Program-made: the position numbers and the translations under genes
Source: Kofleriaceae bacterium
Lineage (GTDB): Bacteria > Myxococcota_A > Polyangia > Haliangiales > Haliangiaceae
NCBI GenBank assembly: GCA_965215005.1
Contig: CBDCCZ010000054.1
Span: 256,001 to 320,000, forward strand
Reading direction: 5' to 3'
DNA length: 64,000 nt
The notes under the pieces: model-generated
Databases searched by the model: none
Seen by the model: the letters and a program-made list of their open reading frames with translations, nothing else
Told to the model about the DNA's origin: nothing
Shown: one piece after another, positions 12,345 through 27,718 of the stretch
How the letters are laid out: each line of letters opens with the position of its first letter
How positions within the stretch are numbered: the first letter of the stretch is position 1

Positions 12345-13598
12345 GTGGCGAAGGCAGCGGAGCTCCTGGAGGTCGATGGCCGCGAGGTGCGGATCTCCAG
12401 CCCCACCAAGATCTACTTTCCTGAGCCGGGCTACACCAAGCTCGATGTCGTTCGGTACTATCTGGCGGTCCGCGAAGGCGCCTTGCGGGGGATCTTCGAC
12501 CGCCCTTTCGTCATGCGCCGCTACGTCGACGGTATCGCCGGCGAGGCGTTCTTTCAGAAGCGCGCGCCCAAGTCTCGCCCCGATTGGATCCGCACGGTTG
12601 AGCTGCGCTTTCCATCAGGCCGTACGGCTGACGAAATCGTGGTCACGGAAACCGCGCAGCTGATCTGGCTGGTCAACCTCGGCTGCCTCGACCTCAACCC
12701 GCATGCGGTGCGAACCGCCGACATGGAGCATCCCGACGAGCTTCGCGTCGATCTCGATCCCACGCCGGGAGTCGAGTGGCCGCAGCTCCGCGAGGTTGCG
12801 TTGGTGGTTCGCGAGGTGCTTTCGGAGCATGGCCTGGTGGGATGGCCCAAAACCTCAGGTTCGCGCGGTATTCACGTCTACGCGCGGATTGCGCCGCAGT
12901 GGGGGTTTGACGAGGTCCGGCGTGCTGCGTTGGCCTTGGCGCGCGAGGTCGAGCGACGCGTGCCGGCGCTGGCCACCAGCGCGTGGTGGAAGGAAGAGCG
13001 TCATGGCGTGTTCCTCGACTACAACCAGAACGCCAAGGACCGCACCGTCGCCTCGGCGTATTCGGTGCGTGCCGTGGCCGACGCACGGGTTTCGGCGCCG
13101 CTAACGTGGGACGAGGTGCCAGACTGCGAGCCGGGAGATTTCACCATTACGACCATGCCCGCGCGCTATGGCCGACTGGGCGAGGTCCACGCGGGCATCG
13201 ATGCGCCAGCGGCAGTGGGGTCGCTCGAGCCGCTCTTAGAGCGGTCTCGTCGCCATGAAGCGGAAGGCCTGGGCGATGCGCCGTGGCCTCCGCACTATAA
13301 GAAGCAACGCGGTGAGCCGCGTCGAGTGCAGCCGTCGAAAGCCAAGGGACGGCAGTCGAAGATGCCACTCATCACCGTGGCCAAAGCGGCGAAGAAGGAA
13401 GACGCGCTGGCTGGCCTGGAGCGATGGAAGTCGCGTCACCCCGCCGCTGCCGAACACGTCGCCGTGGAAGACGTGCTCGTGGATGCAATGCGTGGCAGGT
13501 CCTCCACGTGGACGCGCGTGCGGGTAAATTTGCGCCACGTACCCGAGACCGCTCGGCCTGCAGAAGAGCCGCCGGATCCTGACTACGAGCCGTCGTAG
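12345..13598 (+). CDS. Stand-alone LigD-type primase-polymerase (Prim-PolC/PolD1-like)
   Basis: FFQKRAP, PDELRVDLDP, KTSGSRGIH, DYNQNAKDRTVASAYSVR. Confidence 0.92.
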   Translation: MAKAAELLEVDGREVRISSPTKIYFPEPGYTKLDVVRYYLAVREGALRGIFDRPFVMRRYVDGIAGEAFFQKRAPKSRPDWIRTVELRFPSGRTADEIVVTETAQLIWLVNLGCLDLNPHAVRTADMEHPDELRVDLDPTPGVEWPQLREVALVVREVLSEHGLVGWPKTSGSRGIHVYARIAPQWGFDEVRRAALALAREVERRVPALATSAWWKEERHGVFLDYNQNAKDRTVASAYSVRAVADARVSAPLTWDEVPDCEPGDFTITTMPARYGRLGEVHAGIDAPAAVGSLEPLLERSRRHEAEGLGDAPWPPHYKKQRGEPRRVQPSKAKGRQSKMPLITVAKAAKKEDALAGLERWKSRHPAAAEHVAVEDVLVDAMRGRSSTWTRVRVNLRHVPETARPAEEPPDPDYEPS

Positions 13599-13743
13599 GC
13601 AGCCGAATATCTGGCTCGCGTCACGCGGCCGCTACCTATTGAAGAGCTTCGCTAAGGCCCTCGGTCGCGCGTTTCCCTCGCTCAAGGATGATACTCTCGG
13701 GTCATTACCAGGCACCGAGAGTGCCTCAATGAGAGAGGGGATC

Positions 13744-14218
13744 ATGAAGCAGATCGTTATCATCGGACTGTTCTTCGCGGCGGTCTCCGCCTTCAGCGCT
13801 AGCGAGGCGGCAGCTCAGACCGGCGTTGGCGTGGGCGTCGACGCGTTTTCTCACCGGACCGGTGGGCCCGAGCGTCACCTATGACGCGGATACGTTTCGG
13901 GTGGGCGGCATGTTCGCCTTCTCGGACGACCCAACGCAGTTCTTCCTCGGCGGTCGCGCGGCGTTCGTCGTGCACGAAGGCGACCGCTCCGACTTCGCCA
14001 TCGGCGCCGGCCTGGGAATTTTCAATCAGGACAATGACCCCGTCGACGATGAAACCAACTTCCATCTCGATGCTTTCGGGCAGCTGCGGGCGTTTCTAAC
14101 CAGCAACGTGGCGTTGAACGCGAGCCTGGGCTTAGCGGTGATCGCAGGCGACGCCGATACAGTCGACATAACCGGCGACCTCGTGGGTATCGCCGGCATT
14201 CACTACTACTTCTATTGA
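13744..14218 (+). CDS. Small outer-membrane beta-barrel protein (one frameshift at T-run 13846-13849)
   Basis: Signal peptide MKQIVIIGLFFAAVSAFSASEAAA joins LTGPVGPSVTY... if one T is removed; ends with the aromatic barrel signal GIHYYFY. Confidence 0.75.
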
Positions 14219-14234
14219 CCATCTCTTAGAGTGG

Positions 14235-14266
14235 GAGTGGCTCGCGGCTTACTCCGTGAGCCACTC
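14235..14266. terminator. 13-bp hairpin between convergent genes (REP-like or terminator)
   Basis: GAGTGGCTCGCGG-cttact-CCGTGAGCCACTC. Confidence 0.6.
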
Positions 14267-14323
14267 GCTTCTCGCGGCCGCTTCTCGGGTCTTCCCTCGA
14301 GCTTTACGAGTGTTCACGACCCG

Positions 14324-15406
14324 CTAGGCGCGGAAAATCTGCTGCAACTCGTAAGGCGGGGTGACCTCGAGCTGCGCATAGGTGCACTCGGCGGCGGGCT
14401 TGTCGGGCCGCCAACGCACGAAATGGGCGGTGTGACGAAAGCGATCGCCCTGCATATGGTCGTAGGAGACCTCCACGACGAGCTGTGGACGCAGCGGCAC
14501 CCAGCTCAAGTCTTTGCCGCGGTTCCAGCGGCTGCTGGCGCCTGGCATTCGTTGGCCGGTTTCGTCCGTTTGCGCCCATGAAGCCCACGGGTGATCGGCC
14601 ATGGGGTCTTGCCGGTACGGGGCCAGCTCAACCGTGAGCGCACGCCTCTTGGCTGCGGCGAAACTCGCTGCCACGCCCGCATGGTGCAGAGTTCCGTCTG
14701 CATCGTAAAGACCAAGGAGCAAGGAGCCCACGAGCTCGCCCTCGCCGTCTTTGTGCCAGCGGAATCCAGCGACCACGCAGGCGGCAGTGCGCTGGTGCTT
14801 GACCTTGAGCATCGTGCGCTTGCCAGGCTCGTAGCGCGCATCGTCGGCTTTAGCGATGACACCGTCGAGTCCTGCCCCTTCGAAGCGCTCGAACCAATCG
14901 GTCGCAACTCCGCGGTCGCGCGTTGCTGGGGTTAGGTGAATAGGTGGCCTGGCGGCGTGCAGCGCGTCTTCGAGGAGCCGTCGGCGATCGCGGAACGGCC
15001 GCTGCGACAGATCTTGCTCGCCAAGGCACAACAGATCGAAAGCGACGAACGAGGCAGGTGTTTCTTCGGCGAGTTTTGCCACTCGCGACGCAGCGGGATG
15101 GATGCGCAACAGCAGCGCATCGAAATCGAGGTTGCCCCCGGTCGCGATGACGATCTCACCATCGACCACACAACGAGGCGGAAGATTCCGCAGTAGCGGT
15201 GCCTCGAGCTCGGGGAAATAGCGATTCATCTGCTTGAGATCTCGACTCTGAATGTAAACTTCGTCACCGTCGCGAAACACGATTGCGCGGAAGCCGTCCC
15301 ATTTGGGCTCATAGATCCAGGTGTCGCCTTTGGGCAAGGCGCCAGCGCGCTTCGCGAGCATCGGTTTTACAGGCGGCACGACCGGCGACGACATGCGCAC
15401 CATCAT
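14324..15406 (-). CDS. ligC: ATP-dependent DNA ligase LigC type
   Basis: PMLAK, YEPKWDGFR (motif I), DGEIV, FDLL, LDGVIAK, LRPQLVVEVSYD, RWRPDK. Confidence 0.9.
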   Translation of the reverse strand: MMVRMSSPVVPPVKPMLAKRAGALPKGDTWIYEPKWDGFRAIVFRDGDEVYIQSRDLKQMNRYFPELEAPLLRNLPPRCVVDGEIVIATGGNLDFDALLLRIHPAASRVAKLAEETPASFVAFDLLCLGEQDLSQRPFRDRRRLLEDALHAARPPIHLTPATRDRGVATDWFERFEGAGLDGVIAKADDARYEPGKRTMLKVKHQRTAACVVAGFRWHKDGEGELVGSLLLGLYDADGTLHHAGVAASFAAAKRRALTVELAPYRQDPMADHPWASWAQTDETGQRMPGASSRWNRGKDLSWVPLRPQLVVEVSYDHMQGDRFRHTAHFVRWRPDKPAAECTYAQLEVTPPYELQQIFRA

Positions 15407-17031: not shown

Positions 17032-18357
17032 CTAGCGGCGCCAGGACGGCGCGCTGTGCAGATCCGGCGTTAGCTTCTGCGCGGCGAGCCACGGCTTGAT
17101 ACGGCGGAACGCCTCTTCGATGGCCTCCATGGAAGCGGCAAAGCTGATGCGAATGGCGTTGGGTGTGCTTTCGCCAAAGGCATCGCCCGGCACGACGCAC
17201 ACGCCGGTTTCCTGCAGCATGCGCATCGCGAGGTGTGAGCCATCGGTGTGCGGCGGCAGCGAGGGAAAGATGTAGAAGCCGCCCTGCGGCCAGTACCCAC
17301 TGAGCTGCGGGCACTCGCTCACGAGCTGCACCACGCGATCCCGGCGCCGCGCGTATTCCGTCGTCATGACGTCGACGCAGGAGCGATCGCCCTCGAGGGC
17401 CGCTACCCCAGCCCATTGGGCGGGCGTGTTAGCGACCGAGGTGGTGAACATGTGCAGTCGGCGAAGCCTGCGAATGGCGCCCATGCTGGAGATAACCCAG
17501 CCAATGCGCAGGCCTGGCATCGCGAAGGTCTTTGAAAAGCTGGATACGATGAAGACGTGATCGAGGTCTGCAGCGTACTGCAGCACGCTTGGGTATTCGA
17601 TTTCGTCGAGGATGAGATGGTCGTAGACCTCATCGCTAAAGACCTTCACGCCGCGATACGCCGCCTCTTGTACGATGGCGTTGATGGTCTCTTTGGGATA
17701 GACGGTGCCGGTCGGATTGCTCGGCGAGTTGAGGATGATTCCCGCGGTGCGCGCGCCAATCTTGTTGATGACCTCTTGTGGGTCGATCTGATGGCCGTGC
17801 TCGGCACGCGTGGATATTAACTTGACCTCACCGCCAAACATGCGAATGAGCGGCGCGTACAGCAAGAACGACGGGTCTGGGACCAAGAACTGCTTGCCCG
17901 GCGTGACCGTGGCGGCCAACGCCAGATACATGGCCTCGGTTGCTCCCGAGGTAATGAGAACGTTGTCCTCGCTGAGCGGTCGCTGATAGCGCTCGCCATA
18001 GTATTTCGCCACTGCAGCGAGGAGGTCGGGCAGCCCTTGGTCCATCGTGTAGGCGGTGCGGCCTTCTTGCAGCGCCTTGATATGCGCCTCGATGATGTGT
18101 GGCGGCGTCGGGAAATCTGGCTGGCCGATGGAGAGGTGGATGACATCTTTCATGCCAGCAGCAACGGTGATCATCCGGCGAATTCCAGACATTGGAATTG
18201 CCTGCAGCGCCGGGCTCCACGTCGATTCGGGTTGAGCGATTTCGCCGTCGCTATCATCAGGTTTGGATGCTTTTACCTGGAGATCTTCGCTATCCGCCGC
18301 GACCTCCGTGATCGAGTCATTCTTCGCTGCTTTGCTGCCGATACCGATCTCCGCCAT
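17032..18357 (-). CDS. Class I/II PLP aminotransferase (aspartate aminotransferase-like)
   Basis: IGQPDFPTP, NSPSNPTG, DEVY, SFSKTFAMPGLRIG, RISFA. Confidence 0.93.
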   Translation of the reverse strand: MAEIGIGSKAAKNDSITEVAADSEDLQVKASKPDDSDGEIAQPESTWSPALQAIPMSGIRRMITVAAGMKDVIHLSIGQPDFPTPPHIIEAHIKALQEGRTAYTMDQGLPDLLAAVAKYYGERYQRPLSEDNVLITSGATEAMYLALAATVTPGKQFLVPDPSFLLYAPLIRMFGGEVKLISTRAEHGHQIDPQEVINKIGARTAGIILNSPSNPTGTVYPKETINAIVQEAAYRGVKVFSDEVYDHLILDEIEYPSVLQYAADLDHVFIVSSFSKTFAMPGLRIGWVISSMGAIRRLRRLHMFTTSVANTPAQWAGVAALEGDRSCVDVMTTEYARRRDRVVQLVSECPQLSGYWPQGGFYIFPSLPPHTDGSHLAMRMLQETGVCVVPGDAFGESTPNAIRISFAASMEAIEEAFRRIKPWLAAQKLTPDLHSAPSWRR

Positions 18358-18455
18358 GCGATCAGACTACGCCGCAGGAGCACGCGGATCAACGTGCGAG
18401 GTTTGACGGCTGCAGCGCGGCCCGATAACGTCACCGTTCGAACGCGAGGTTCTAA

Positions 18456-19458
18456 GTGAGTGCACAAGCGATACATTTGCCGGTGGTGGCGGTACTCGAT
18501 GCCGAGCATGCTCCGCCATGGCCGGGTCTCGAGCCGCTCGCGGAACACGCTGAGGTGGTGCATTGCGCGGATGCCGGTGCGCTCGAGGAGGTCATGCAGC
18601 GCGCTGAGGTGCTGCTCGTTACCGACTTCCGCGCCACCATCAATTAAAACTGCCTGGCCCGATGCGAAGCGACTGTCGTGGGTGCACGCCACGAGCGCCG
18701 GCGTCGACATGTTGATGTTTCCCGAGCTGGTCGCGAGCGCCATTCCCGTGACCAACGCACGCGGCGTTTTCGACCGCACCATCGCGGAATACGTGCTTGG
18801 AATCGTGGCTGCGTTCGCGAAGGACTTTTGGCGAACACGCGCGCTGCAGCAACAGCAGCGTTGGCAGCATCGCGATACCGAACGCATCGCGGGGGCCCGC
18901 ATGCTGGTGGTCGGTGCCGGCTCGATCGGACGCGAGATAGCGCGACTAGCGCGCGCGGTAGGAATGCAGGTGAGCGGCCTGGCTAGACAGGCGCGAGATG
19001 ACGATCCCGTGTTCGGCGAGGTATACGCGGCCGAGGAGCTGGCGCGGGTGCTGCCGCTTGCTGACTACGTCGTGATTGCCGCGCCGCTCACCGAGGCTAC
19101 GCGCCACCTTTTCGATGCGGCTGCGCTTGCTCTCATGAAGCCAACGGCGCGTCTGATCAATATCGGTCGCGGCCCCATCGTCGACACCGATGCGTTGGTG
19201 GCGGCGCTACGCGCAAATCGCCTCGCCGGCGCTGCCCTCGATGTGTTCGAAGAAGAGCCATTGCCGGCAAGCCATCCGCTTTGGGCGATGGAGCAGGTGC
19301 TGATCTCACCGCACATGGCTGGCGACTTTGCCGGCTGGCGCGAGGCGCTCAGCGCGCAATTTATCGCTAATTTTCATCGGTGGCGTGCGGGCCAGCCGCT
19401 CGTCAACCTCGTTGACAAACGCCGCGGCTACGCCGGGCCAGCTAAGGAGAGTGCATGA
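18456..19458 (+). CDS. D-2-hydroxyacid dehydrogenase (one frameshift near 18642)
   Basis: The 18456 ORF joins the 18460 frame (TIIKTAWP) if one A is removed; SAGVD, GAGSIG, NIGRG, LDVFEEEPL, SPHMAG. Confidence 0.9.
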
Positions 19459-20886
19459 CTGCCTCGTCTGCCATTGCCGAGCTCACTGCTGCTGAGCTCC
19501 TCGAGCTCTATCAGACCAAGAAGCTATCGCCGGTGGAGGCAGCGAAGGCGTGCCTTGCGCGGGTCCGCGCGCACAACGACGCGGTGAACGCCTACCGCTT
19601 CGTGGACGAGGACACGACGCTGCGACTCGCTAGCGAATCCGAGGCTCGCTACCTTGCCGGCGAGCCGCGCGGCAGTCTCGACGGCGTGCCGGTGGCGGTT
19701 AAAGATGTTTTTCTCATCAAGGGGTGGCCAACGATCAAGGGCTCGCACGCGATCGCCCGCGATCAACCTTGGGATATCGACGCGCCGGCCATCGCCGCGC
19801 TTCGTCGCAACGGGTTTGTTCCCCTGGGCATGACCACCACGCCGGAGTTTGGTTGGAAGGGCGTTACCGACAATCCGGTGGACGGTGTCACTCGCAATCC
19901 GTGGGATCCCAGTAAGACTGCGGGTGGCTCGAGCGGCGGCAGCGCGGCGGCAGTGCCGCTCGGCATGGGGCCTTTGGCGCTCGGCACGGATGCTGGTGGA
20001 TCGATTCGTATACCCGCGGGATTTTGCGGCATCGTTGGCCATAAGCCCACGATGGGCCGAGCGCCGATGTGGCCGCCGAGCGCGTTCGCCCCGCTCGCTC
20101 ACGTGGGTCCGATGACGTGGACGGTGCAAGATGCGGCGCTGCTGCTCGATGTGTTGACCGAGCCTGATTCCCGCGATGCCACTCTGCCTGCCAATCATAG
20201 CCGATTCAAAGATTCACTCGAGGGTGGCATCAAGGGCCTGCGCATCGCGTTCAGCCCCGCGTCTGGGCTACGTGGACATCGTCGAGCCGGAGATCGCTGA
20301 GGCAGTGGCCAGCGCCGCAAGAGTGTTTGAAACGCTAGGGGCGCGTGTCGAGGAAGTCGACCCTGGCTTCTCCGATCCACTCGAGATGTTTGACCGCATG
20401 TTCTATGGCGGCGCCGCAAACGCTCTGCGGGATCTGTCAGACGAACAGAAGTCCAAGATGGATCCGAACTTGGTGTTGGTCGCACGCGAAGCTTCCAAGC
20501 TGACGATGCTCGAGTACCTCGAGGCCAGCAATCTGCGTCTACGGCTGATCGAGCGCATGAGCCTCTTCCATACCCATTACGACTTGTTGCTCACGCCTTC
20601 GCTGCCTATCGTGGCATTCGAGGCCGGGCGCGAGGTGCCTGCCGGCTGGCACAGCCCCCGCTGGCCCACGTGGACGCCATTTACCTATCCATTCAATCTG
20701 ACCGGGCAGCCGGCGTGTTCCGTGCCTTGCGGCTTTACCTCAAACAAACTGCCGATCGGCCTGCAGCTGGTGGGAGCCGCGCACGCCGACGACGTCGTGT
20801 TGCGCGCCGCGCACGCCTATCAGATCACTCGCCCCTTGACGGATCGTCGCCCAACGCTGCACGAAGCGGCGCAAGGAACAACATGA
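19455..20886 (+). CDS. Amidase (amidase-signature family; one frameshift at C-run 20255-20258)
   Basis: GVPVAVKD, GGSSGGS, GTDAGGSIRIPA; removing one C gives RIAFSPRLGYVD; C-terminal PFNLTGQPA, LPIGLQLVG; ATGA overlaps at both ends. Confidence 0.92.
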
Positions 20887-22301
20887 ACCAGACCCCGGTG
20901 AAGATAGGTGGCTCGCCAGTGACCAAGGCGCGCACCATCGAGATACGCAATCCGTACAACGACGATGTCGTGGGTATCGTGCCGCAGTGCGACGCTGCCG
21001 ATGTAGACCGCGCGTGTAAAGCGGCGAAAGCGGCACTCGATCGCGATGACTTTCCGCAACATCAACGCGCGGCGGTTCTGGAGCGCGCCGCGGTGCTACT
21101 TCGTAGCCGCATAGAGGAGCTAGCGCGCATCATCATGCGCGAGGGCGGCAAACCGATACGAACCGCGCGCAGCGAGGTCGAACGGTGCGTCGACACTCTC
21201 GTATTCTCGGCGGTCGAAGCGCGCAAGCTCACTGGTGAAATGATCCCAATGGCGGCCAGTGTCTCTGGGGCCGGAAAATTGGCCTTCGCGCTGCGGATTC
21301 CCATTGGGGTCATCGGCGCCATCACGCCATTCAACTTTCCGCTCAACCTCGTGGCCCACAAGCTCGCGCCGGCCATTGCCGCGGGGTGTCCTGTGGTGCT
21401 CAAGCCGGCACCGCAGACGCCCCTGACCGCGCTGGCGCTCGTCGACCTGTTGTTCGAGGCTGGCTTGCCGCAGGACTGGATTTCTACCGTCACCGATGGT
21501 GGCAAAGAGGCAGGCGAGCCGCTGGTCGAGCACGACATCCCCAAGATGATCACGTTTACCGGTAGCGCTCCGGTGGGCTGGATGATCGCCAGTAAAGCCG
21601 CTAAGAAGCGCGTCTCGCTCGAGCTTGGCTCCAACTCGCCGCTCATCGTCGAGCCAGACGGCGACGTCGACACCGTCATCAAGAAGCTCGGAGCTGCGGC
21701 GTTCGGCAACGCCGGCCAGAGCTGCATCTCGGTTCAGCGCCTGTTGGTGCACGAAAGCATTTGCGCGCCGTTCACCGATAAGCTCATCGCCGCGATGCGC
21801 GGCTTGGTCGTTGGCGACCCGGCTGACGAGAAGACCGATGTGGGCCCGATGATTCGTTCACAAGAGAACGAGCGAGTGGCCGCGTGGCTGCAGGAAGCGG
21901 TGCAGGCAGGGGCCAAGGTACTGCTCGGCGGCAAGCCCGAAGGACGCCTATTTCCGCCCACCGTCGTCGCCGATGCGCCCTCCTCATGCAAGCTCTATCG
22001 CAATGAGGTCTTCGGGCCGGTCCTCCTCGTGAACAGCTATCGATCATTCGATCAGGCCATCGAGATGGCCAATGATAGCGACTTTGGCTTACACGCCGGC
22101 GTCTTTACGCGCAACCTGGGCCGTGCGCTGGAGGCGGCTAAGCGGCTCGAGTTTGGCGGCGTGTTGATCAATGAGGTGCCGACCTTTCGCGCCGATCAGC
22201 AGCCGTACGGCGGCGTCGCAGATGCAGGCAACACCCGCGAGGGCCCCGCTTATACAGTTGCCGAAATGACGGAGCTGCGCTTCGTGAGCTTGCAGGCGTG
22301 A
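20883..22301 (+). CDS. NAD(P)-dependent aldehyde dehydrogenase
   Basis: ITPFNFP, FTGS, LELGSN, GQSCIS, EVFGP; ATG at 20883 overlaps the amidase stop. Confidence 0.95.
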   Translation: MNQTPVKIGGSPVTKARTIEIRNPYNDDVVGIVPQCDAADVDRACKAAKAALDRDDFPQHQRAAVLERAAVLLRSRIEELARIIMREGGKPIRTARSEVERCVDTLVFSAVEARKLTGEMIPMAASVSGAGKLAFALRIPIGVIGAITPFNFPLNLVAHKLAPAIAAGCPVVLKPAPQTPLTALALVDLLFEAGLPQDWISTVTDGGKEAGEPLVEHDIPKMITFTGSAPVGWMIASKAAKKRVSLELGSNSPLIVEPDGDVDTVIKKLGAAAFGNAGQSCISVQRLLVHESICAPFTDKLIAAMRGLVVGDPADEKTDVGPMIRSQENERVAAWLQEAVQAGAKVLLGGKPEGRLFPPTVVADAPSSCKLYRNEVFGPVLLVNSYRSFDQAIEMANDSDFGLHAGVFTRNLGRALEAAKRLEFGGVLINEVPTFRADQQPYGGVADAGNTREGPAYTVAEMTELRFVSLQA

Positions 22302-22308
22302 CCGTGCG

Positions 22309-22341
22309 CGAGCGGACGCCTCGTTTGCGGACGTCCGCTCG
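22309..22341. terminator. Hairpin between convergent genes
   Basis: CGAGCGGACG ... CGTCCGCTCG 10-bp stem. Confidence 0.55.
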
Positions 22342-22349
22342 GCCCGTGC

Positions 22350-22706
22350 TCAGTATGCTTCGCCCGGGGCGCCGCCATACAGGCCTTCGCCGCAGTACAC
22401 GCTGACCTCGCGAAACTCGACCAGCGGCACCACAAAGAAGGTGAGCGAGTTGATCACGCTGCCGACCACGCTGTTGAGAAAGCTCGTGCGGTCGACGAGC
22501 AACGCCGGCTCACCGTAGCTTGCGCACGCCAAATCGAGGTCGACTTCCTCTGCCTCGATGATTCCGTAGATGAGTGCAATGTGCCAGTGCTCGTCGTAAC
22601 GCTGCGAACGCGCCTGCGGTTGTGCGTTCAGGTGATACACTGTTTTGTAGCAAGCAGTTGACGACAGGATGAGCACTGTCAGAGCAAGAGTGATGCTGGT
22701 CCTCAT
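22350..22706 (-). CDS. Bor/Iss-like lipoprotein
   Basis: STAC lipobox, LIYGII, DLACA, SFLNSVV, REVSVYC. Confidence 0.7.
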   Translation of the reverse strand: MRTSITLALTVLILSSTACYKTVYHLNAQPQARSQRYDEHWHIALIYGIIEAEEVDLDLACASYGEPALLVDRTSFLNSVVGSVINSLTFFVVPLVEFREVSVYCGEGLYGGAPGEAY

Positions 22707-23047
22707 CGCCCTCGCTCCCCGAAGGTATCCACGGCGCAGGTTACCGTGGTGGTGCGCGGCGCATACAACCCAAGGGTGATGAGCGTCAGGACCGTGTCGA
22801 GCGGCGTCTCGCGCGAGAAGATCTTGGCGACGCCTGGGGCGCCGCAGTCACGGCCCGCCCACACGTGCTCCTCACCAATCAGCCCCCAGAGAAAAAAGTG
22901 CAAGTCGTATTCGATTTGCCGATACGACTGCACTTTGTGAGGTGCGCGATAGGTGAGGCGCGAGCAGCCGAGGAGCCCCCAAGCCATCGCCAGCACGATG
23001 ATGACGGAAGCGAGCTGGCGGCGAGACGAACGAACGGACGAACACAT
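22703..23047 (-). CDS. Bor/Iss family lipoprotein
   Basis: LLGC lipobox, HFFLWGLIG, C, ITLGLYAPRTTTVTC. Confidence 0.8.
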   Translation of the reverse strand: MCSSVRSSRRQLASVIIVLAMAWGLLGCSRLTYRAPHKVQSYRQIEYDLHFFLWGLIGEEHVWAGRDCGAPGVAKIFSRETPLDTVLTLITLGLYAPRTTTVTCAVDTFGERGR

Positions 23048-23185
23048 GGGTTAGCCTCCTCGGCCAGATGACCTTTCGCAGGAGATTCATCGAGCAGCAT
23101 AGACGGCATCACAGGATGCCGTCACCCCCCCTTCTGCTCGTTCGTGACGAACGACGCATGCCGCCCCAACCCGACACGATGTAGG

Positions 23186-24457
23186 TCACGCTGTTGCGTT
23201 TAGCGCCTCTTCGAAGATAGCAACGGCGGTATCGACTTGGTCTTTGGTGACCACCAGCGGCGGCAGCCAGCGCGCGACGTTGCCAAAGGCCCCGCAGCGC
23301 AACATGAGAAGTCCGCGCCGCTCGACCTCCTCTAGTAGCTTTGCGGTGCGGTCGCCATCGGGTTTACCGCTCGCATCGACCATCCAAGTGCCGAGCATCA
23401 AGCCCTTGCCGCGGATGTGGCCGATGGCGCCGTGCTGCTTCTGCAGCTCGATGAGCCGCGCACGCAGATGCGCCCCCATCCGCTCGGCGTTCTCCACCAG
23501 CTTCTCCTCGCGGATGACGCGAAGCGTGGCTACCGCCGCCGCGGAGGCCACTGCGTTGCCACCGTAGGTGCCGCCCTGCGAGCCCATCCAACCCTTAGCC
23601 ATCAGCTCTTCACGCGCGCCGAATGCCGACAATGGAAAGCCGCTCGCGAGTCCCTTGGCGGTGATGACAATGTCCGGTTGGGCATCGAAGTGCTCGTGTC
23701 CCCAGAACTTGCCGGTCCGGCCGTAGCCGGCTTGGACCTCATCGAGAACCAGCAGAATACCGTGCTCGTCGCAGCGCTCGCGCAGGCCAGCCAGGAAGGC
23801 GGCATTGGCGGGCGTGTAGCCGCCCTCGCCTTGAATGGGCTCGATGAAGAATGCCGCTGTCTCGTTGGGAGCGCAGTAGGTCATAAAGATGCGATCGAGC
23901 TCGCGCAGACAGAACTCGGTCGTGGTTGCTTCATCCCAACCGTAGTGAAATGGATCGGGGAACGGCGCCACGATCACGCCACCCATTAGCGGCTGCAAGC
24001 CGGCGCGCAGCTTTACGCTCGAGGTCGTCATCGACAATGCGCCGACGGTACGGCCGTGAAACGAGCCGTGGAACACGATGAGGTTCGGCCTTCCGGTCGC
24101 GTGTCGACAAAGTCGCATGGCGGCCTCTACAGCCTCGGTTCCGGCGCTGGCGAAGAAGAACCGGTCGATGGGGCTCGGCATCACCTCCGCGAGCCCCGCG
24201 CTCAGCTCCTTGAGCTTGGGATGCATGACAGTGGTGTATTGCCCATGGATCAAGTTGCCGGCTTGCTCGCGCGCGGCCGCGACGACCGCCGGATGGCAGT
24301 GGCCGGTGCTGGTCACGCCGATACCCGACGTAAAGTCCAGATAGCGCTTGTCCTCAGGGTCAAAAAGATAACAACCCTCGCCGCGCACCGCCGTGACTCG
24401 ACTCGATTGTTTGAGCAGCGGCGAAAGTTGTCCATCTCGTGTCGATGCAGTTCCCAT
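23186..24457 (-). CDS. Class III (omega-amino) PLP aminotransferase, GABA/diaminobutyrate transaminase-like
   Basis: YLDFTSGIGV...GHCHP, SFHGRT, EPIQGEGG, DEVQAGYGRTG, AKGLASG, GGTYGGN; start chosen at ATG 24457. Confidence 0.92.
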   Translation of the reverse strand: MGTASTRDGQLSPLLKQSSRVTAVRGEGCYLFDPEDKRYLDFTSGIGVTSTGHCHPAVVAAAREQAGNLIHGQYTTVMHPKLKELSAGLAEVMPSPIDRFFFASAGTEAVEAAMRLCRHATGRPNLIVFHGSFHGRTVGALSMTTSSVKLRAGLQPLMGGVIVAPFPDPFHYGWDEATTTEFCLRELDRIFMTYCAPNETAAFFIEPIQGEGGYTPANAAFLAGLRERCDEHGILLVLDEVQAGYGRTGKFWGHEHFDAQPDIVITAKGLASGFPLSAFGAREELMAKGWMGSQGGTYGGNAVASAAAVATLRVIREEKLVENAERMGAHLRARLIELQKQHGAIGHIRGKGLMLGTWMVDASGKPDGDRTAKLLEEVERRGLLMLRCGAFGNVARWLPPLVVTKDQVDTAVAIFEEALNATA

Positions 24458-24488
24458 GCAACGAGCATCCCTCGCTGCCGAGTCTCGA

Positions 24489-25658
24489 TCAACCCGAGCG
24501 GTGCAGCGCTCCGAGAATCGACTCAGCGATCGCTGCGGTGGTGCGCCGCGCCTGGCCATGCTGGCGCAGGTCCTCTGCGACGGCTGCATGGAGGCGGCGG
24601 GCGGCGCTGGCTGCCCGAGGATCTTCTTGCCCCATCCAATCGAGCATCATGGCAGTGGTTAGTAGCATCGCTCGGGGATCGGCGATGTCCTGACCGACGA
24701 TATCCGGCGCGCTGCCGTGAGTCGGCTCGAACATGGGTGGCCGCGAGCGGTCGGATGGATTGATGTTGCAGGATGGCGCAACGCCCATGCCTCCACACAA
24801 AACCGCCGCGAGGTCCGTGAGAATGTCACCTTGCAAGTTGCTTGCAACGACGACGTCGAACATCCATGGGCTGGCGACGAACTTCATGCACGCTGCATCG
24901 ACCAACTCATGATGAGTGGCGATATCTGGATAGTTCTTGGCAACCTCGGCAAAGACCTCAGTCCACATCTGGCCCCAGTAGGCAAGGGCGTTTCGCTTGG
25001 TCACAAGACACACTTGTGCTGCCGCATCGCTGCCAGCGGCGGTGCGGAACTGGCGTGGGCGTCGTGCTCCGGCCGCACGCTCTGCGGCACGCTGTCGGGC
25101 ACGCTCGAAGGCGTGAGTAAAAATTCGCTCGGCGCCGCGGCGCGTAAACACTTCCACCTGCGTGGCGAGCTCAGCAGGGCTGCCTACGCCCACGCGACCG
25201 CCCTGGCCGATGTATTCGCCTTCGCTGTTTTCGCGAATCACCAGTAAGTCGAGCTCGCCGGCGCGTGGATCGGCGAGATATTGCCGCGCGCCTTCGATGG
25301 TGATAGCCGGACGCTCGCATGCCCATAAGTCGAACCCCTGGCGAATCTCGAGCAGCGGCGCCAGCGAAACACCATCTGTCAACCGAAAGCGGTCGGTGGC
25401 GGTGAGCGGCCCGGGATCGCCGAGGGCGCCCAGCAGCAGCGCATCGTACTGCGCCAGCTGCGCTTTCCAGTCGCCGGGCATGCCCGCGCCGTTCTCGGCA
25501 TAGTATGCGGTGGACGGCCACGCGAGCTCAGTGAGCTGCAAGCGCAGCTCGCCGAGCGCCGCGAGCGCGTCCGCGGCAACGCGCATCACCTCGGGACCGA
25601 TGCCATCTCCCGGCGCGAGCGCGATCTTCCATTGGCTACGTGCGGCGCTCTCGACCAT
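24489..25658 (-). CDS. Decarboxylating dehydrogenase of the isocitrate/isopropylmalate family, tartrate/D-malate dehydrogenase-like
   Basis: GDGIGPEV, RENSEGEY, FDVVVASNLQGDILTDL, APSCNINP, FEPTHGSAPDI. Confidence 0.85.
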   Translation of the reverse strand: MVESAARSQWKIALAPGDGIGPEVMRVAADALAALGELRLQLTELAWPSTAYYAENGAGMPGDWKAQLAQYDALLLGALGDPGPLTATDRFRLTDGVSLAPLLEIRQGFDLWACERPAITIEGARQYLADPRAGELDLLVIRENSEGEYIGQGGRVGVGSPAELATQVEVFTRRGAERIFTHAFERARQRAAERAAGARRPRQFRTAAGSDAAAQVCLVTKRNALAYWGQMWTEVFAEVAKNYPDIATHHELVDAACMKFVASPWMFDVVVASNLQGDILTDLAAVLCGGMGVAPSCNINPSDRSRPPMFEPTHGSAPDIVGQDIADPRAMLLTTAMMLDWMGQEDPRAASAARRLHAAVAEDLRQHGQARRTTAAIAESILGALHRSG

Positions 25659-25661
25659 GAC

Positions 25662-26060
25662 TCAGTCTTTGATTTCTTCGGCGGCGAGCTCGTACGAGCC
25701 GTCTTTGTTGTGTACTTCGGTGCCGTGTAACGCTGGACTGAACACGCACGCGAGCTCGAGCTCGCTATGAGCGCGCAGCACGTGCTTGTCGTGCTTGTCG
25801 AGCGCATAGATCATACCCGGCGAAATCGGGTGCTTTTCCCCCGTTCGCAGGTCTTCGATCTCGCCCTCGCCCTGGATGCAGTACACCGACTCCAGGTGGT
25901 TTTGGTACCAGAGCTGGAGCTCGGCGCCGCGATAGATGGTGGTGATGTGAAACGAGAAGTTCATCTCGTCGTTCTTGAGAAGGAGTCGCACTGACTCGAA
26001 TCCCTCGGAGGAGATACGGCGTTTGCTTTTCCTGGCTTCTTGAAGACGTCTTACGATCAC
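25662..26060 (-). CDS. ectC: Ectoine synthase (solitary; no ectA/ectB in window)
   Basis: GTG start after [73 protein letters not shown]. Confidence 0.95.
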
Positions 26061-27367: not shown

Positions 27368-27718
27368 ATGATTCGAATCACGAGTCTTCTCAGTGCCATG
27401 GGGATCTTGATTGCGCTCGCCGCAGGCAGCGGCTGTGGGCGGACCAGATTCCGCGGTGACGCGAGGGTCCCCAACGGTCCATCAGGTTGCGAGGCAATCT
27501 GTGCGGCCTGGGGGATGGACATGGCGGGAATGGTCGCGGTGGGCGGATATTCCACGGCCTGCGTGTGCGAAGTCCCCGGCAAAGAGGTCGCGGTTACTAG
27601 CGTGGCGGCGGCCGTCGTTCCGGCGGTGGCCGGCGTGGTCATGCAGCAGCGTCGCCGAGAGGCGCTGCTGCTGGCGCTGCTGCAACAGCAGGCGATGCAA
27701 GGACAACAGGCGCGCTGA
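27368..27718 (+). CDS. Small Cys-containing hypothetical lipoprotein
   Basis: Signal peptide ending GSGC; GPSGCEAIC...SACVC-like motif; Gln-rich tail. Confidence 0.65.
   Translation: MIRITSLLSAMGILIALAAGSGCGRTRFRGDARVPNGPSGCEAICAAWGMDMAGMVAVGGYSTACVCEVPGKEVAVTSVAAAVVPAVAGVVMQQRRREALLLALLQQQAMQGQQAR

What the first reader, a model, noticed from the sequence alone, without database searches (positions are those of the whole stretch)
17032..26060. Solitary ectC within a seven-enzyme cluster: candidate new (hydroxy)ectoine degradation pathway via hydroxyaspartate and tartrate
Seen in sequence: ectC has an intact cupin metal motif (E in NHLESVY; Y and H in YALDKHDKH). It ends 3 nt before a tartrate/isopropylmalate-type decarboxylating dehydrogenase, which is followed by a class III aminotransferase. 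A converging ATGA-coupled operon encodes a D-2-hydroxyacid dehydrogenase, an amidase and an ALDH, and a class I aminotransferase is transcribed divergently from it. The window has no EctA acetyltransferase, no canonical EctB and no EutD/DoeA (M24) or EutE/DoeB. Established: known ectoine catabolism uses EutD/EutE, a DABA transaminase and a semialdehyde dehydrogenase; EctC ring chemistry is reversible, at least for some analogues. Inference: the set maps step by step onto hydroxyectoine -> (EctC, ring opening) N-gamma-acetyl-hydroxy-DABA -> (amidase) hydroxy-DABA -> (class III AT) hydroxyaspartate semialdehyde -> (ALDH) 3-hydroxyaspartate -> (class I AT) oxaloglycolate -> (2-hydroxyacid DH) tartrate -> (tartrate DH/decarboxylase) glycerate + CO2. 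Plain ectoine would yield aspartate. This would give a role to orphan ectC genes and suit a predator harvesting prey osmolytes.
Basis: partly seen in the sequence, partly recalled or inferred. Interest (0 to 1): 0.88.

Follow-up and report, generated by a model that had tools for sequence, protein, structure and literature searches.

The report
Candidate EutD-free ectoine breakdown pathway
Six enzyme genes beside an ectoine synthase gene recur as a set in other bacteria that make ectoine, and they likely form an undescribed route that breaks ring-opened ectoine down to D-malate and pyruvate; two of the six are frameshifted in this assembly.

Summary
The seven genes exist as described, with corrections. 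The 2-hydroxyacid dehydrogenase and the amidase each carry a +1 frameshift (probably assembly errors). Two lipoprotein genes separate the halves. ectC is not solitary: the genome has ask-ectAB (fused), a second ectB and a second ectC, and this EctC is of the canonical operon type. The six non-ectC genes are a conserved set (56-74% identity) in Gammaproteobacteria, never seen next to ectC. All 17 sampled genomes with the class I aminotransferase orthologue carry ectC (background 12% and 41%); of 9 tested, 0 have eutD or eutE and only 2 have ectD. So the ectoine link is supported, the hydroxyectoine/hydroxyaspartate route is not. Best reading (0.5): N-gamma-acetyl-DABA is transaminated at C2, reduced, deacetylated, omega-transaminated and oxidised to D-malate, then decarboxylated to pyruvate. 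Enzyme subfamilies fit this order. No step is shown biochemically. Whether EctC opens the ring is open; published equilibrium data argue against it. No description found in open-access searches.

The parts
17032..18357 (-). Class I PLP aminotransferase; predicted first committed step (alpha-transamination of N-gamma-acetyl-DABA)
   Evidence: PF00155, below all NCBIfam cut-offs; orthologues 58-78%; G-A-T-E-A where aspartate aminotransferases 1o4s/1j32 have G-x-K-Q
18456..19458 (+). D-2-hydroxyacid dehydrogenase, DDH-like; one extra base near 18642-18643 gives a stop at 18645-18647
   Evidence: PF02826; best NCBIfam NF041369 below cut-off; frames; DNA alignment with 4 orthologues; orthologue's PDB hits 3hg7 and 5mh5
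19455..20886 (+). Amidase-signature amidase of family PRK06169/NF004815; one extra base near 20255-20261 splits it into two frames
   Evidence: halves match model positions 3-272 and 269-467; intact orthologues over cut-off; DNA alignment
20883..22301 (+). Aldehyde dehydrogenase; predicted malate 4-semialdehyde to D-malate. Most other clusters use an SSADH-type enzyme instead
   Evidence: PF00171; 68% to the enzyme at the same place in G225, 31-37% to the ALDH of other clusters; two of those pass TIGR01780
22350..23047 (-). Two small predicted lipoprotein genes between the halves; probably unrelated
   Evidence: 22703-23047 matches Bor PF06291; no match in any related locus
23186..24457 (-). 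Class III (omega) aminotransferase, GABA-transaminase-like, not EctB
   Evidence: PRK08117 474 bits, GABAtrnsam 353, EctB model 197, all below cut-off; top PDB hits PuuE/GabT; orthologues 58-71%
24489..25658 (-). Beta-decarboxylating dehydrogenase of a distinct clade within the tartrate/D-malate dehydrogenase group; predicted D-malate to pyruvate + CO2
   Evidence: TIGR02089 306 against cut-off 470; best PDB sequence hit 3flk; own clade, support 100, stem 0.92; ERP and TKRN motifs in 120 of 120
25662..26060 (-). Ectoine synthase EctC, canonical clade, heading the dehydrogenase and class III aminotransferase genes; Phe at Trp21
   Evidence: PF06339 and NF009806 over cut-off; tree and residues; Phe21 also in 3 of 119 relatives

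Best explanation
The six enzymes next to ectC are a conserved gene set of ectoine-producing bacteria that likely degrades N-gamma-acetyl-L-2,4-diaminobutyrate (ring-opened plain ectoine) to D-malate and pyruvate without EutD/EutE. Predicted order: class I aminotransferase (alpha-amine) gives 2-oxo-4-acetamidobutyrate; the D-2-hydroxyacid dehydrogenase gives the (R)-2-hydroxy acid; the amidase releases acetate and (R)-4-amino-2-hydroxybutyrate; the class III omega-aminotransferase gives malate 4-semialdehyde; the aldehyde dehydrogenase gives D-malate; the beta-decarboxylating dehydrogenase gives pyruvate and CO2. This avoids free DABA and aspartate semialdehyde, which EctA/EctB would recapture. 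Shown: gene identities, conservation, co-occurrence. Inferred: every substrate and the order (the amidase could act one step earlier). The feed is either excess biosynthetic intermediate or EctC pulled backwards. In this genome, which gained the set laterally, ectC has come to head one of its operons and probably also completes biosynthesis with the distant ask-ectAB. Hydroxyectoine run through the same order would end in L-tartrate (inference from stereo-descriptors).
For: Conservation: of 19 metagenome loci with close dehydrogenase orthologues, 8 hold all six genes, 14 the class I aminotransferase, 15 the reductase; 0 of 61 more distant dehydrogenase loci hold either of those two. Co-occurrence: class sample, 9 of 9 carriers have ectC against 26 of 290 others, all in ectABC operons; order sample, 8 of 8 against 61 of 160. 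Carriers: eutD 0 of 9, eutE 0 of 9, ectD 2 of 9, ehuB 1 of 9. Position: 3 nt behind ectC here; high-ranking plasmid matches of reductase (2nd) and amidase (6th) fall in one ask-ectC-ectB-doeA-ehu island. Aminotransferase orthologues named from Blastopirellula marina, Bremerella and Halorhodospira halochloris; Blastopirellula/Bremerella hold 5 of the 7 ect-bearing Pirellulaceae in PMC13342039. Chemistry: only a C4 diamino skeleton gives a beta-carboxylate for the last enzyme (inference); DDH-type reductases prefer unbranched C4-C5 2-oxo monoacids (PMC6303947); GABA-transaminase and SSADH likeness; T-E instead of K-Q in 117 of 120 orthologues (role of that Lys recalled, one search found no paper); semialdehyde to D-malate to pyruvate is shown for carnitine (PMC11353897).
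Against: No biochemical or expression data. Two genes are frameshifted here. ectC is adjacent in this genome only. Partial sets are common: G225 lacks the dehydrogenase orthologue, G312 lacks reductase and amidase, 5 of 8 order-sample loci have four genes or fewer. Purified EctC shows no reverse reaction on ectoine and the equilibrium lies almost wholly on the ectoine side (PMC3187862, PMC6344544). Absence of eutD is not significant on its own (0 of 9 against 5 of 26, p=0.30). Carriers are kin or share saline habitats, so the p-values (1.5e-9, 6e-4) overstate. The dehydrogenase fails the tartrate dehydrogenase cut-off and has clade-specific residues, so D-malate is a guess. The carnitine semialdehyde is a different isomer (3-hydroxy-4-oxo).
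Confidence: 0.5

Rival explanations
1. One reading: hydroxyectoine is opened, deacetylated, omega-transaminated and oxidised to 3-hydroxyaspartate, then taken through oxaloglycolate and tartrate to glycerate.
For: Uses all six families; the dehydrogenase lies in the tartrate/D-malate group; class I aminotransferase, reductase and dehydrogenase would be consecutive steps and are the trio kept in several reduced clusters.
Against: ectD in 2 of 9 carriers and none in G000; ehuB in 1 of 9; aminotransferase lacks the K-Q motif of aspartate-type enzymes; reductase is DDH-like; tartrate dehydrogenase itself handles oxaloglycolate, so a separate reductase would be redundant (recalled); with plain ectoine half the genes would be idle. 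TRAP importers were not tested.
Confidence: 0.12
2. The set is tied to ectoine metabolism but by other chemistry or direction, for example acting on free DABA, on N-alpha-acetyl-DABA, or making another solute from ectoine intermediates.
For: Same co-occurrence data; modular retention, e.g. aminotransferase plus amidase alone in L192; all steps but the amidase and decarboxylation are reversible in principle.
Against: A hydrolase plus a decarboxylating dehydrogenase point to breakdown; the D-malate route uses each family's ordinary reaction.
Confidence: 0.15
3. The set degrades an unrelated amino compound common in saline habitats; co-occurrence with ectC reflects habitat and kinship, and ectC here is simply the displaced biosynthetic gene.
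For: ectC never adjacent elsewhere; related aminotransferase/ALDH/dehydrogenase modules occur in actinobacterial loci with other neighbours (L124, L151, L152); G000 has ectAB without a linked ectC.
Against: 17 of 17 sampled carriers have ectC, including 8 of 8 inside one order where 59% of genomes lack it; no importer is a regular part of the clusters read (an MFS-like gene in 2 loci), which suits an internal substrate; ectoine island on the Mesorhizobium plasmid.
Confidence: 0.2
4. Status of this copy only (independent of the readings above): the locus is a recent pseudogene, with real frameshifts in the reductase and amidase.
For: 2 frameshifts in 7 genes against 2 in 95 other gene places of G000.
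Against: Both are single extra bases, identity to orthologues equals that of intact neighbours; run X1 has depth about 2 there and its contigs begin at 18643 and 20261, right at the two sites, as expected if reads disagree (X1 may be the source sample and bridges neither site).
Confidence: 0.3

Closest known systems
Eut/Doe ectoine catabolism (EutD/DoeA, EutE/DoeB, Atf/DoeD, Ssd/DoeC)
   Same: Predicted substrate class; uses a deacetylating step, a class III aminotransferase and a semialdehyde dehydrogenase (PMC13188858 part 2).
   Different: No EutD or EutE in G000 or 9 carriers; amidase-signature enzyme instead of EutE; predicted gamma- not alpha-acetyl isomer; predicted end D-malate/pyruvate, not aspartate; found in producers, without EnuR or a standing importer in the loci read.
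[quoted passage not shown]
   Same: SSADH-like enzyme then beta-decarboxylating dehydrogenase, D-malate to pyruvate (PMC11353897).
   Different: Different semialdehyde isomer and upstream chemistry; the window's dehydrogenase is its own clade; no direct sequence comparison with the Acinetobacter enzymes was made.
Tartrate dehydrogenase/decarboxylase TtuC and DmlA (TIGR02089)
   Same: Fold and catalytic Arg/Tyr/Lys/Asp set.
   Different: 303-351 bits against cut-off 470; ERP and TKRN motifs; lacks the His and Trp of the D-H-x-S-L-W stretch; insertion near residues 190-215.
Orphan (solitary) EctC proteins
   Same: ectC without adjacent ectAB; question of function open (PMC5924519).
   Different: This EctC nests with operon-encoded enzymes; the C3 copy is the one that groups with orphan Rhizobium-type proteins; ectAB are in the genome.
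GABA shunt GabT/GabD
   Same: Class III enzyme closest to PuuE/GabT in PDB; cluster ALDH often passes the SSADH cut-off.
   Different: Below GabT cut-offs; predicted substrate is the 2-hydroxy analogue.

Membership tests
EctC ectoine synthase | PF06339/NF009806 over cut-off; metal ligands Glu, Tyr, His | tested here: met
EctC ectoine synthase | Substrate residues Trp21, Ser23, Arg25, Thr40, Tyr52, Phe106 | tested here: inconclusive
   All kept except Trp21, which is Phe; W21A leaves 9.7% activity (PMC6344544), but Phe occurs in 3 of 119 relatives
Orphan EctC | No ectAB in the genome, or placement in the basal orphan clades | tested here: not met
   ectA, ectB over cut-off; canonical clade
Eut/Doe pathway | EutD/DoeA hydrolase | tested here: not met
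   G000 best 32 bits against 613; 0 of 9 carriers
Eut/Doe pathway | EutE/DoeB deacetylase | tested here: not met
   0 of 10 genomes over cut-off
Eut/Doe pathway | Linked ectoine importer (Ehu or Ueh/Tea) | tested here: inconclusive
   ehuB absent from G000, in 1 of 9 carriers; TRAP type not tested
Tartrate dehydrogenase TtuC/DmlA (TIGR02089) | Score over 470.4 bits | tested here: not met
   306 for the window protein, 303-351 for six orthologues
Beta-decarboxylating dehydrogenases | Fold and catalytic residues (R106, R116, R142, Y149, K221, D254, D278, D282) | tested here: met
   invariant in alignment A1; alignment to 3flk and Foldseek
Amidase PRK06169 (NF004815) | Score over 506 bits | tested here: inconclusive
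   window halves 402 and 255 scored separately; intact orthologues 642-676
EctB / DABA transaminase | TIGR02407 over 552 bits | tested here: not met
   197 bits for the window class III enzyme
Proposed N-gamma-acetyl-DABA to D-malate pathway | Enzyme activities on the predicted intermediates | not testable with these tools
   needs assays

The most novel reading that the evidence does not exclude
Ectoine producers without EutD/EutE run EctC backwards, pulled by a six-enzyme sink through N-gamma-acetyl-DABA, 4-amino-2-hydroxybutyrate and D-malate to pyruvate (L-tartrate from hydroxyectoine). This is the missing second ectoine degradation pathway, spread over several gammaproteobacterial lineages, some planctomycetes and this genome, where ectC has been recruited to the head of the catabolic operon.
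Probability: 0.3. Interest if true: 0.85.

Novelty: new variant of a known kind. Interest (0 to 1): 0.7.

Why it matters
PMC3187862 (section 12) noted that most ectoine producers it compared lack a full Doe set and supposed that alternative degradation routes, perhaps a reversed synthesis, must exist. This gene set is a concrete, directly testable candidate in such producers. It would assign functions to several unnamed enzyme clades (PRK06169 amidase subset, PRK08117-like aminotransferase, a new tartrate/D-malate dehydrogenase clade), give N-gamma-acetyl-DABA a sink, and name a loss route that matters for ectoine production strains and for marine osmolyte turnover.

Tried and rejected
ectC as bait for the cluster: 49 loci, 47 canonical ectABC, none with the set; L026 has the start of an amidase (53% over 64 aa) at its edge, not followed. 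Relatives and phylum: no orthologue in 60 and 250 genomes. Plasmid hits in Rhodococcus and Arthrobacter gave partial, differently flanked modules; the Tistrella amidase has no ectoine genes beside it. TIGR01096 was the wrong model for ehuB, replaced by TIGR02995. Of 14 genomes with NF004815 over cut-off, 6 have amidases outside the cluster (42-56% identity), so the class I aminotransferase was used as marker instead. G281 was not scored. A recalled actinobacterial amidase/reductase cluster beside ehuABCD could not be tested (searches gave nothing). The AlphaFold model (pLDDT 79.5) only confirmed the fold. Promoter and terminator scan at chance level. No composition anomaly. No RNA holder listed. 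Trp21Phe as a unique hydrolase signature: rejected, it recurs in 3 of 119. Earlier findings: none. Both trees are quick IQ-TREE runs without bootstrap. No paper supplements were read.
Full report
What is there. The ATGA overlaps are real. Two small lipoprotein genes, one Bor-like, lie between the halves and match no related locus.

Two genes are broken in this assembly. The reductase and the amidase each have one extra base against four orthologues. Only 2 of 95 other gene places tested in G000 are frameshifted (700 of 1326 candidate queries). But identity to orthologues is as high as for intact neighbours, and the one run that holds the stretch has depth about 2 there, with contigs starting at 18643 and 20261, at the two sites. 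That run may be the source sample and bridges neither site. I put assembly error at about 0.7.

ectC is not solitary. G000 has EctA and EctB over their cut-offs as one 610-aa ORF behind an aspartate kinase, about 175 kb away on the same contig and without ectC; a second ask-ectB with a divergent MarR-type gene on C24; and a second ectC on C3. Of 49 loci with EctC relatives, 47 have ectB just upstream. In a quick tree the window EctC nests among operon-encoded enzymes, while the C3 copy groups with orphan Rhizobium-type proteins. It keeps the metal and substrate residues except Trp21, which is Phe; that residue matters in PMC6344544 (passages), but Phe recurs in 3 of 119 relatives. G000 (92.8% complete) shows no eutD, eutE, ectD, ehuB or BCCT.

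The six other genes are a conserved unit. The dehydrogenase has a tight family (62-71%) named mainly from Ectothiorhodospiraceae-like halophiles. Of 19 metagenome loci with close orthologues, 8 hold all six genes, 15 the reductase, 14 the class I aminotransferase, 12 the class III enzyme, 9 the amidase, and none ectC; of 61 more distant dehydrogenase loci none holds the reductase or class I enzyme. The aldehyde dehydrogenase is usually SSADH-type; the window's type recurs in G225 in the same gene order. The set was not found in 60 relatives or 250 phylum genomes, so it was probably gained laterally.

The unit follows ectoine synthesis. Among 300 Gammaproteobacteria scored (centre G061 left out of the tests), 9 carry the class I aminotransferase orthologue; all 9 have ectC, against 26 of 290 others, always in an ectABC operon away from the set. 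Of these 9, none has eutD or eutE, 2 have ectD (6 of 26 other ectC genomes do) and 1 has ehuB. In one order, 8 of 8 carriers have ectC against 61 of 160. Kin are not independent and saline habitat is a confounder, so the p-values (1.5e-9, 6e-4) overstate; the lack of eutD is not significant alone (p=0.30). Further hints: the 2nd-ranked plasmid match of the reductase and 6th-ranked of the amidase lie in one Mesorhizobium island with ask, ectC, ectB, doeA and ehu genes; orthologues are named from Blastopirellula marina and Bremerella, the genera holding 5 of 7 ect-bearing Pirellulaceae (PMC13342039, passages), and from Halorhodospira halochloris, whose crude extracts showed a reversible synthase reaction according to PMC3187862 (passages). 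Against a strict six-step chain: five of the 9 have all six genes in one stretch and G149 has them in two, but G225 lacks the dehydrogenase, G312 lacks reductase and amidase, no ALDH was seen on G308's short contigs, and 5 of 8 order-sample loci have four genes or fewer.

How it most likely works. Plain ectoine fits better than hydroxyectoine. Starting from N-gamma-acetyl-DABA, each family does its ordinary reaction: alpha-transamination to 2-oxo-4-acetamidobutyrate, reduction to the (R)-hydroxy acid, deacetylation, omega-transamination, oxidation to D-malate, oxidative decarboxylation to pyruvate. The subfamilies agree. The class I enzyme has T-E in 117 of 120 orthologues where aspartate aminotransferases 1o4s and 1j32 have K-Q; that this Lys binds the distal carboxylate is recalled, and one search found no paper. 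The reductase is nearest to the DDH type among characterised structures, which prefers unbranched C4-C5 2-oxo acids (PMC6303947, passages). The class III enzyme is closest to GABA transaminases. The dehydrogenase forms its own clade inside the tartrate/D-malate group, outside LeuB, with all catalytic residues but below the TIGR02089 cut-off. It needs a malate skeleton, which only a C4 diamino acid supplies (inference). Semialdehyde to D-malate to pyruvate is proven for carnitine, with another isomer (PMC11353897, abstract and passages). The route also avoids DABA and aspartate semialdehyde, which EctA/EctB would recapture. All of this is inference.

The weak link is ring opening. No carrier tested has EutD, so EctC is the only known source of the substrate. 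Purified EctC showed no reverse reaction and the equilibrium lies almost wholly with ectoine. A downstream sink could still pull it; otherwise the set only drains surplus or scavenged intermediate. The window is the one place seen where ectC heads part of the set, which suggests a link but is a single case; the same EctC probably serves biosynthesis with the distant ectAB.

Comparison and novelty. It fails membership of the Eut/Doe pathway (PMC13188858, part 2 of 7), of orphan EctC (PMC5924519, passages), of EctB and of TtuC by cut-off. PMC3187862 (section 12) supposed alternative routes in producers lacking Doe genes. Searches of the open-access library listed no description of this gene set; subscription papers and supplements were not seen.

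Noticed in passing
L179:9929-11761 (G000:C54:104928-106760, minus): EctA and EctB are one in-frame 610-aa ORF with a short linker, behind an aspartate kinase and without ectC. Could be a true fusion.
   Followed up: partly
L180:7901-11295 (G000:C24): Second ask-ectB pair with a divergent MarR-type (EctR-like, label recalled) gene, no ectA or ectC found beside it.
   Followed up: partly
L002 / L052:10623-11003 (G000:C3): Second ectC, 46% to the window copy, orphan type.
   Followed up: partly
window 22350-23047 and 27368-27718: Small predicted lipoprotein genes, one Bor-like (PF06291); a perfect 9-bp hairpin at 23102-23123 lies between the class III aminotransferase and them.
   Followed up: no
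window 12345-15406: A LigD-polymerase-like gene and an ATP-dependent ligase (LigC-like) gene, labels from reading the translations.
   Followed up: no
L182 (NZ_CP080530.1:922000-966000): Mesorhizobium plasmid island joining ask-ectC-ectB, doeA, ehuBACD, M24/M20 peptidases, an Asp/Glu racemase, a PRK06169 amidase and a D-2-hydroxyacid dehydrogenase.
   Followed up: partly
L161:6612-7823 and L168:11172-12602: An MFS-like membrane protein lies within the cluster in the two carriers that also have ectD.
   Followed up: no
L151, L152, L124: Actinobacterial-type loci with related class III aminotransferase (52-61%), aldehyde dehydrogenase and tartrate dehydrogenase, in L151 also the reductase (53%), beside FAD oxidoreductases; may feed another 2-hydroxy-GABA-type substrate to D-malate.
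   Followed up: no
L069:12537-13544: An isocitrate dehydrogenase gene follows the class III aminotransferase in this cluster.
   Followed up: no
L026:20198-20389: Start of an amidase (53% over 64 aa) 10 kb downstream of an ectABC operon.
   Followed up: no
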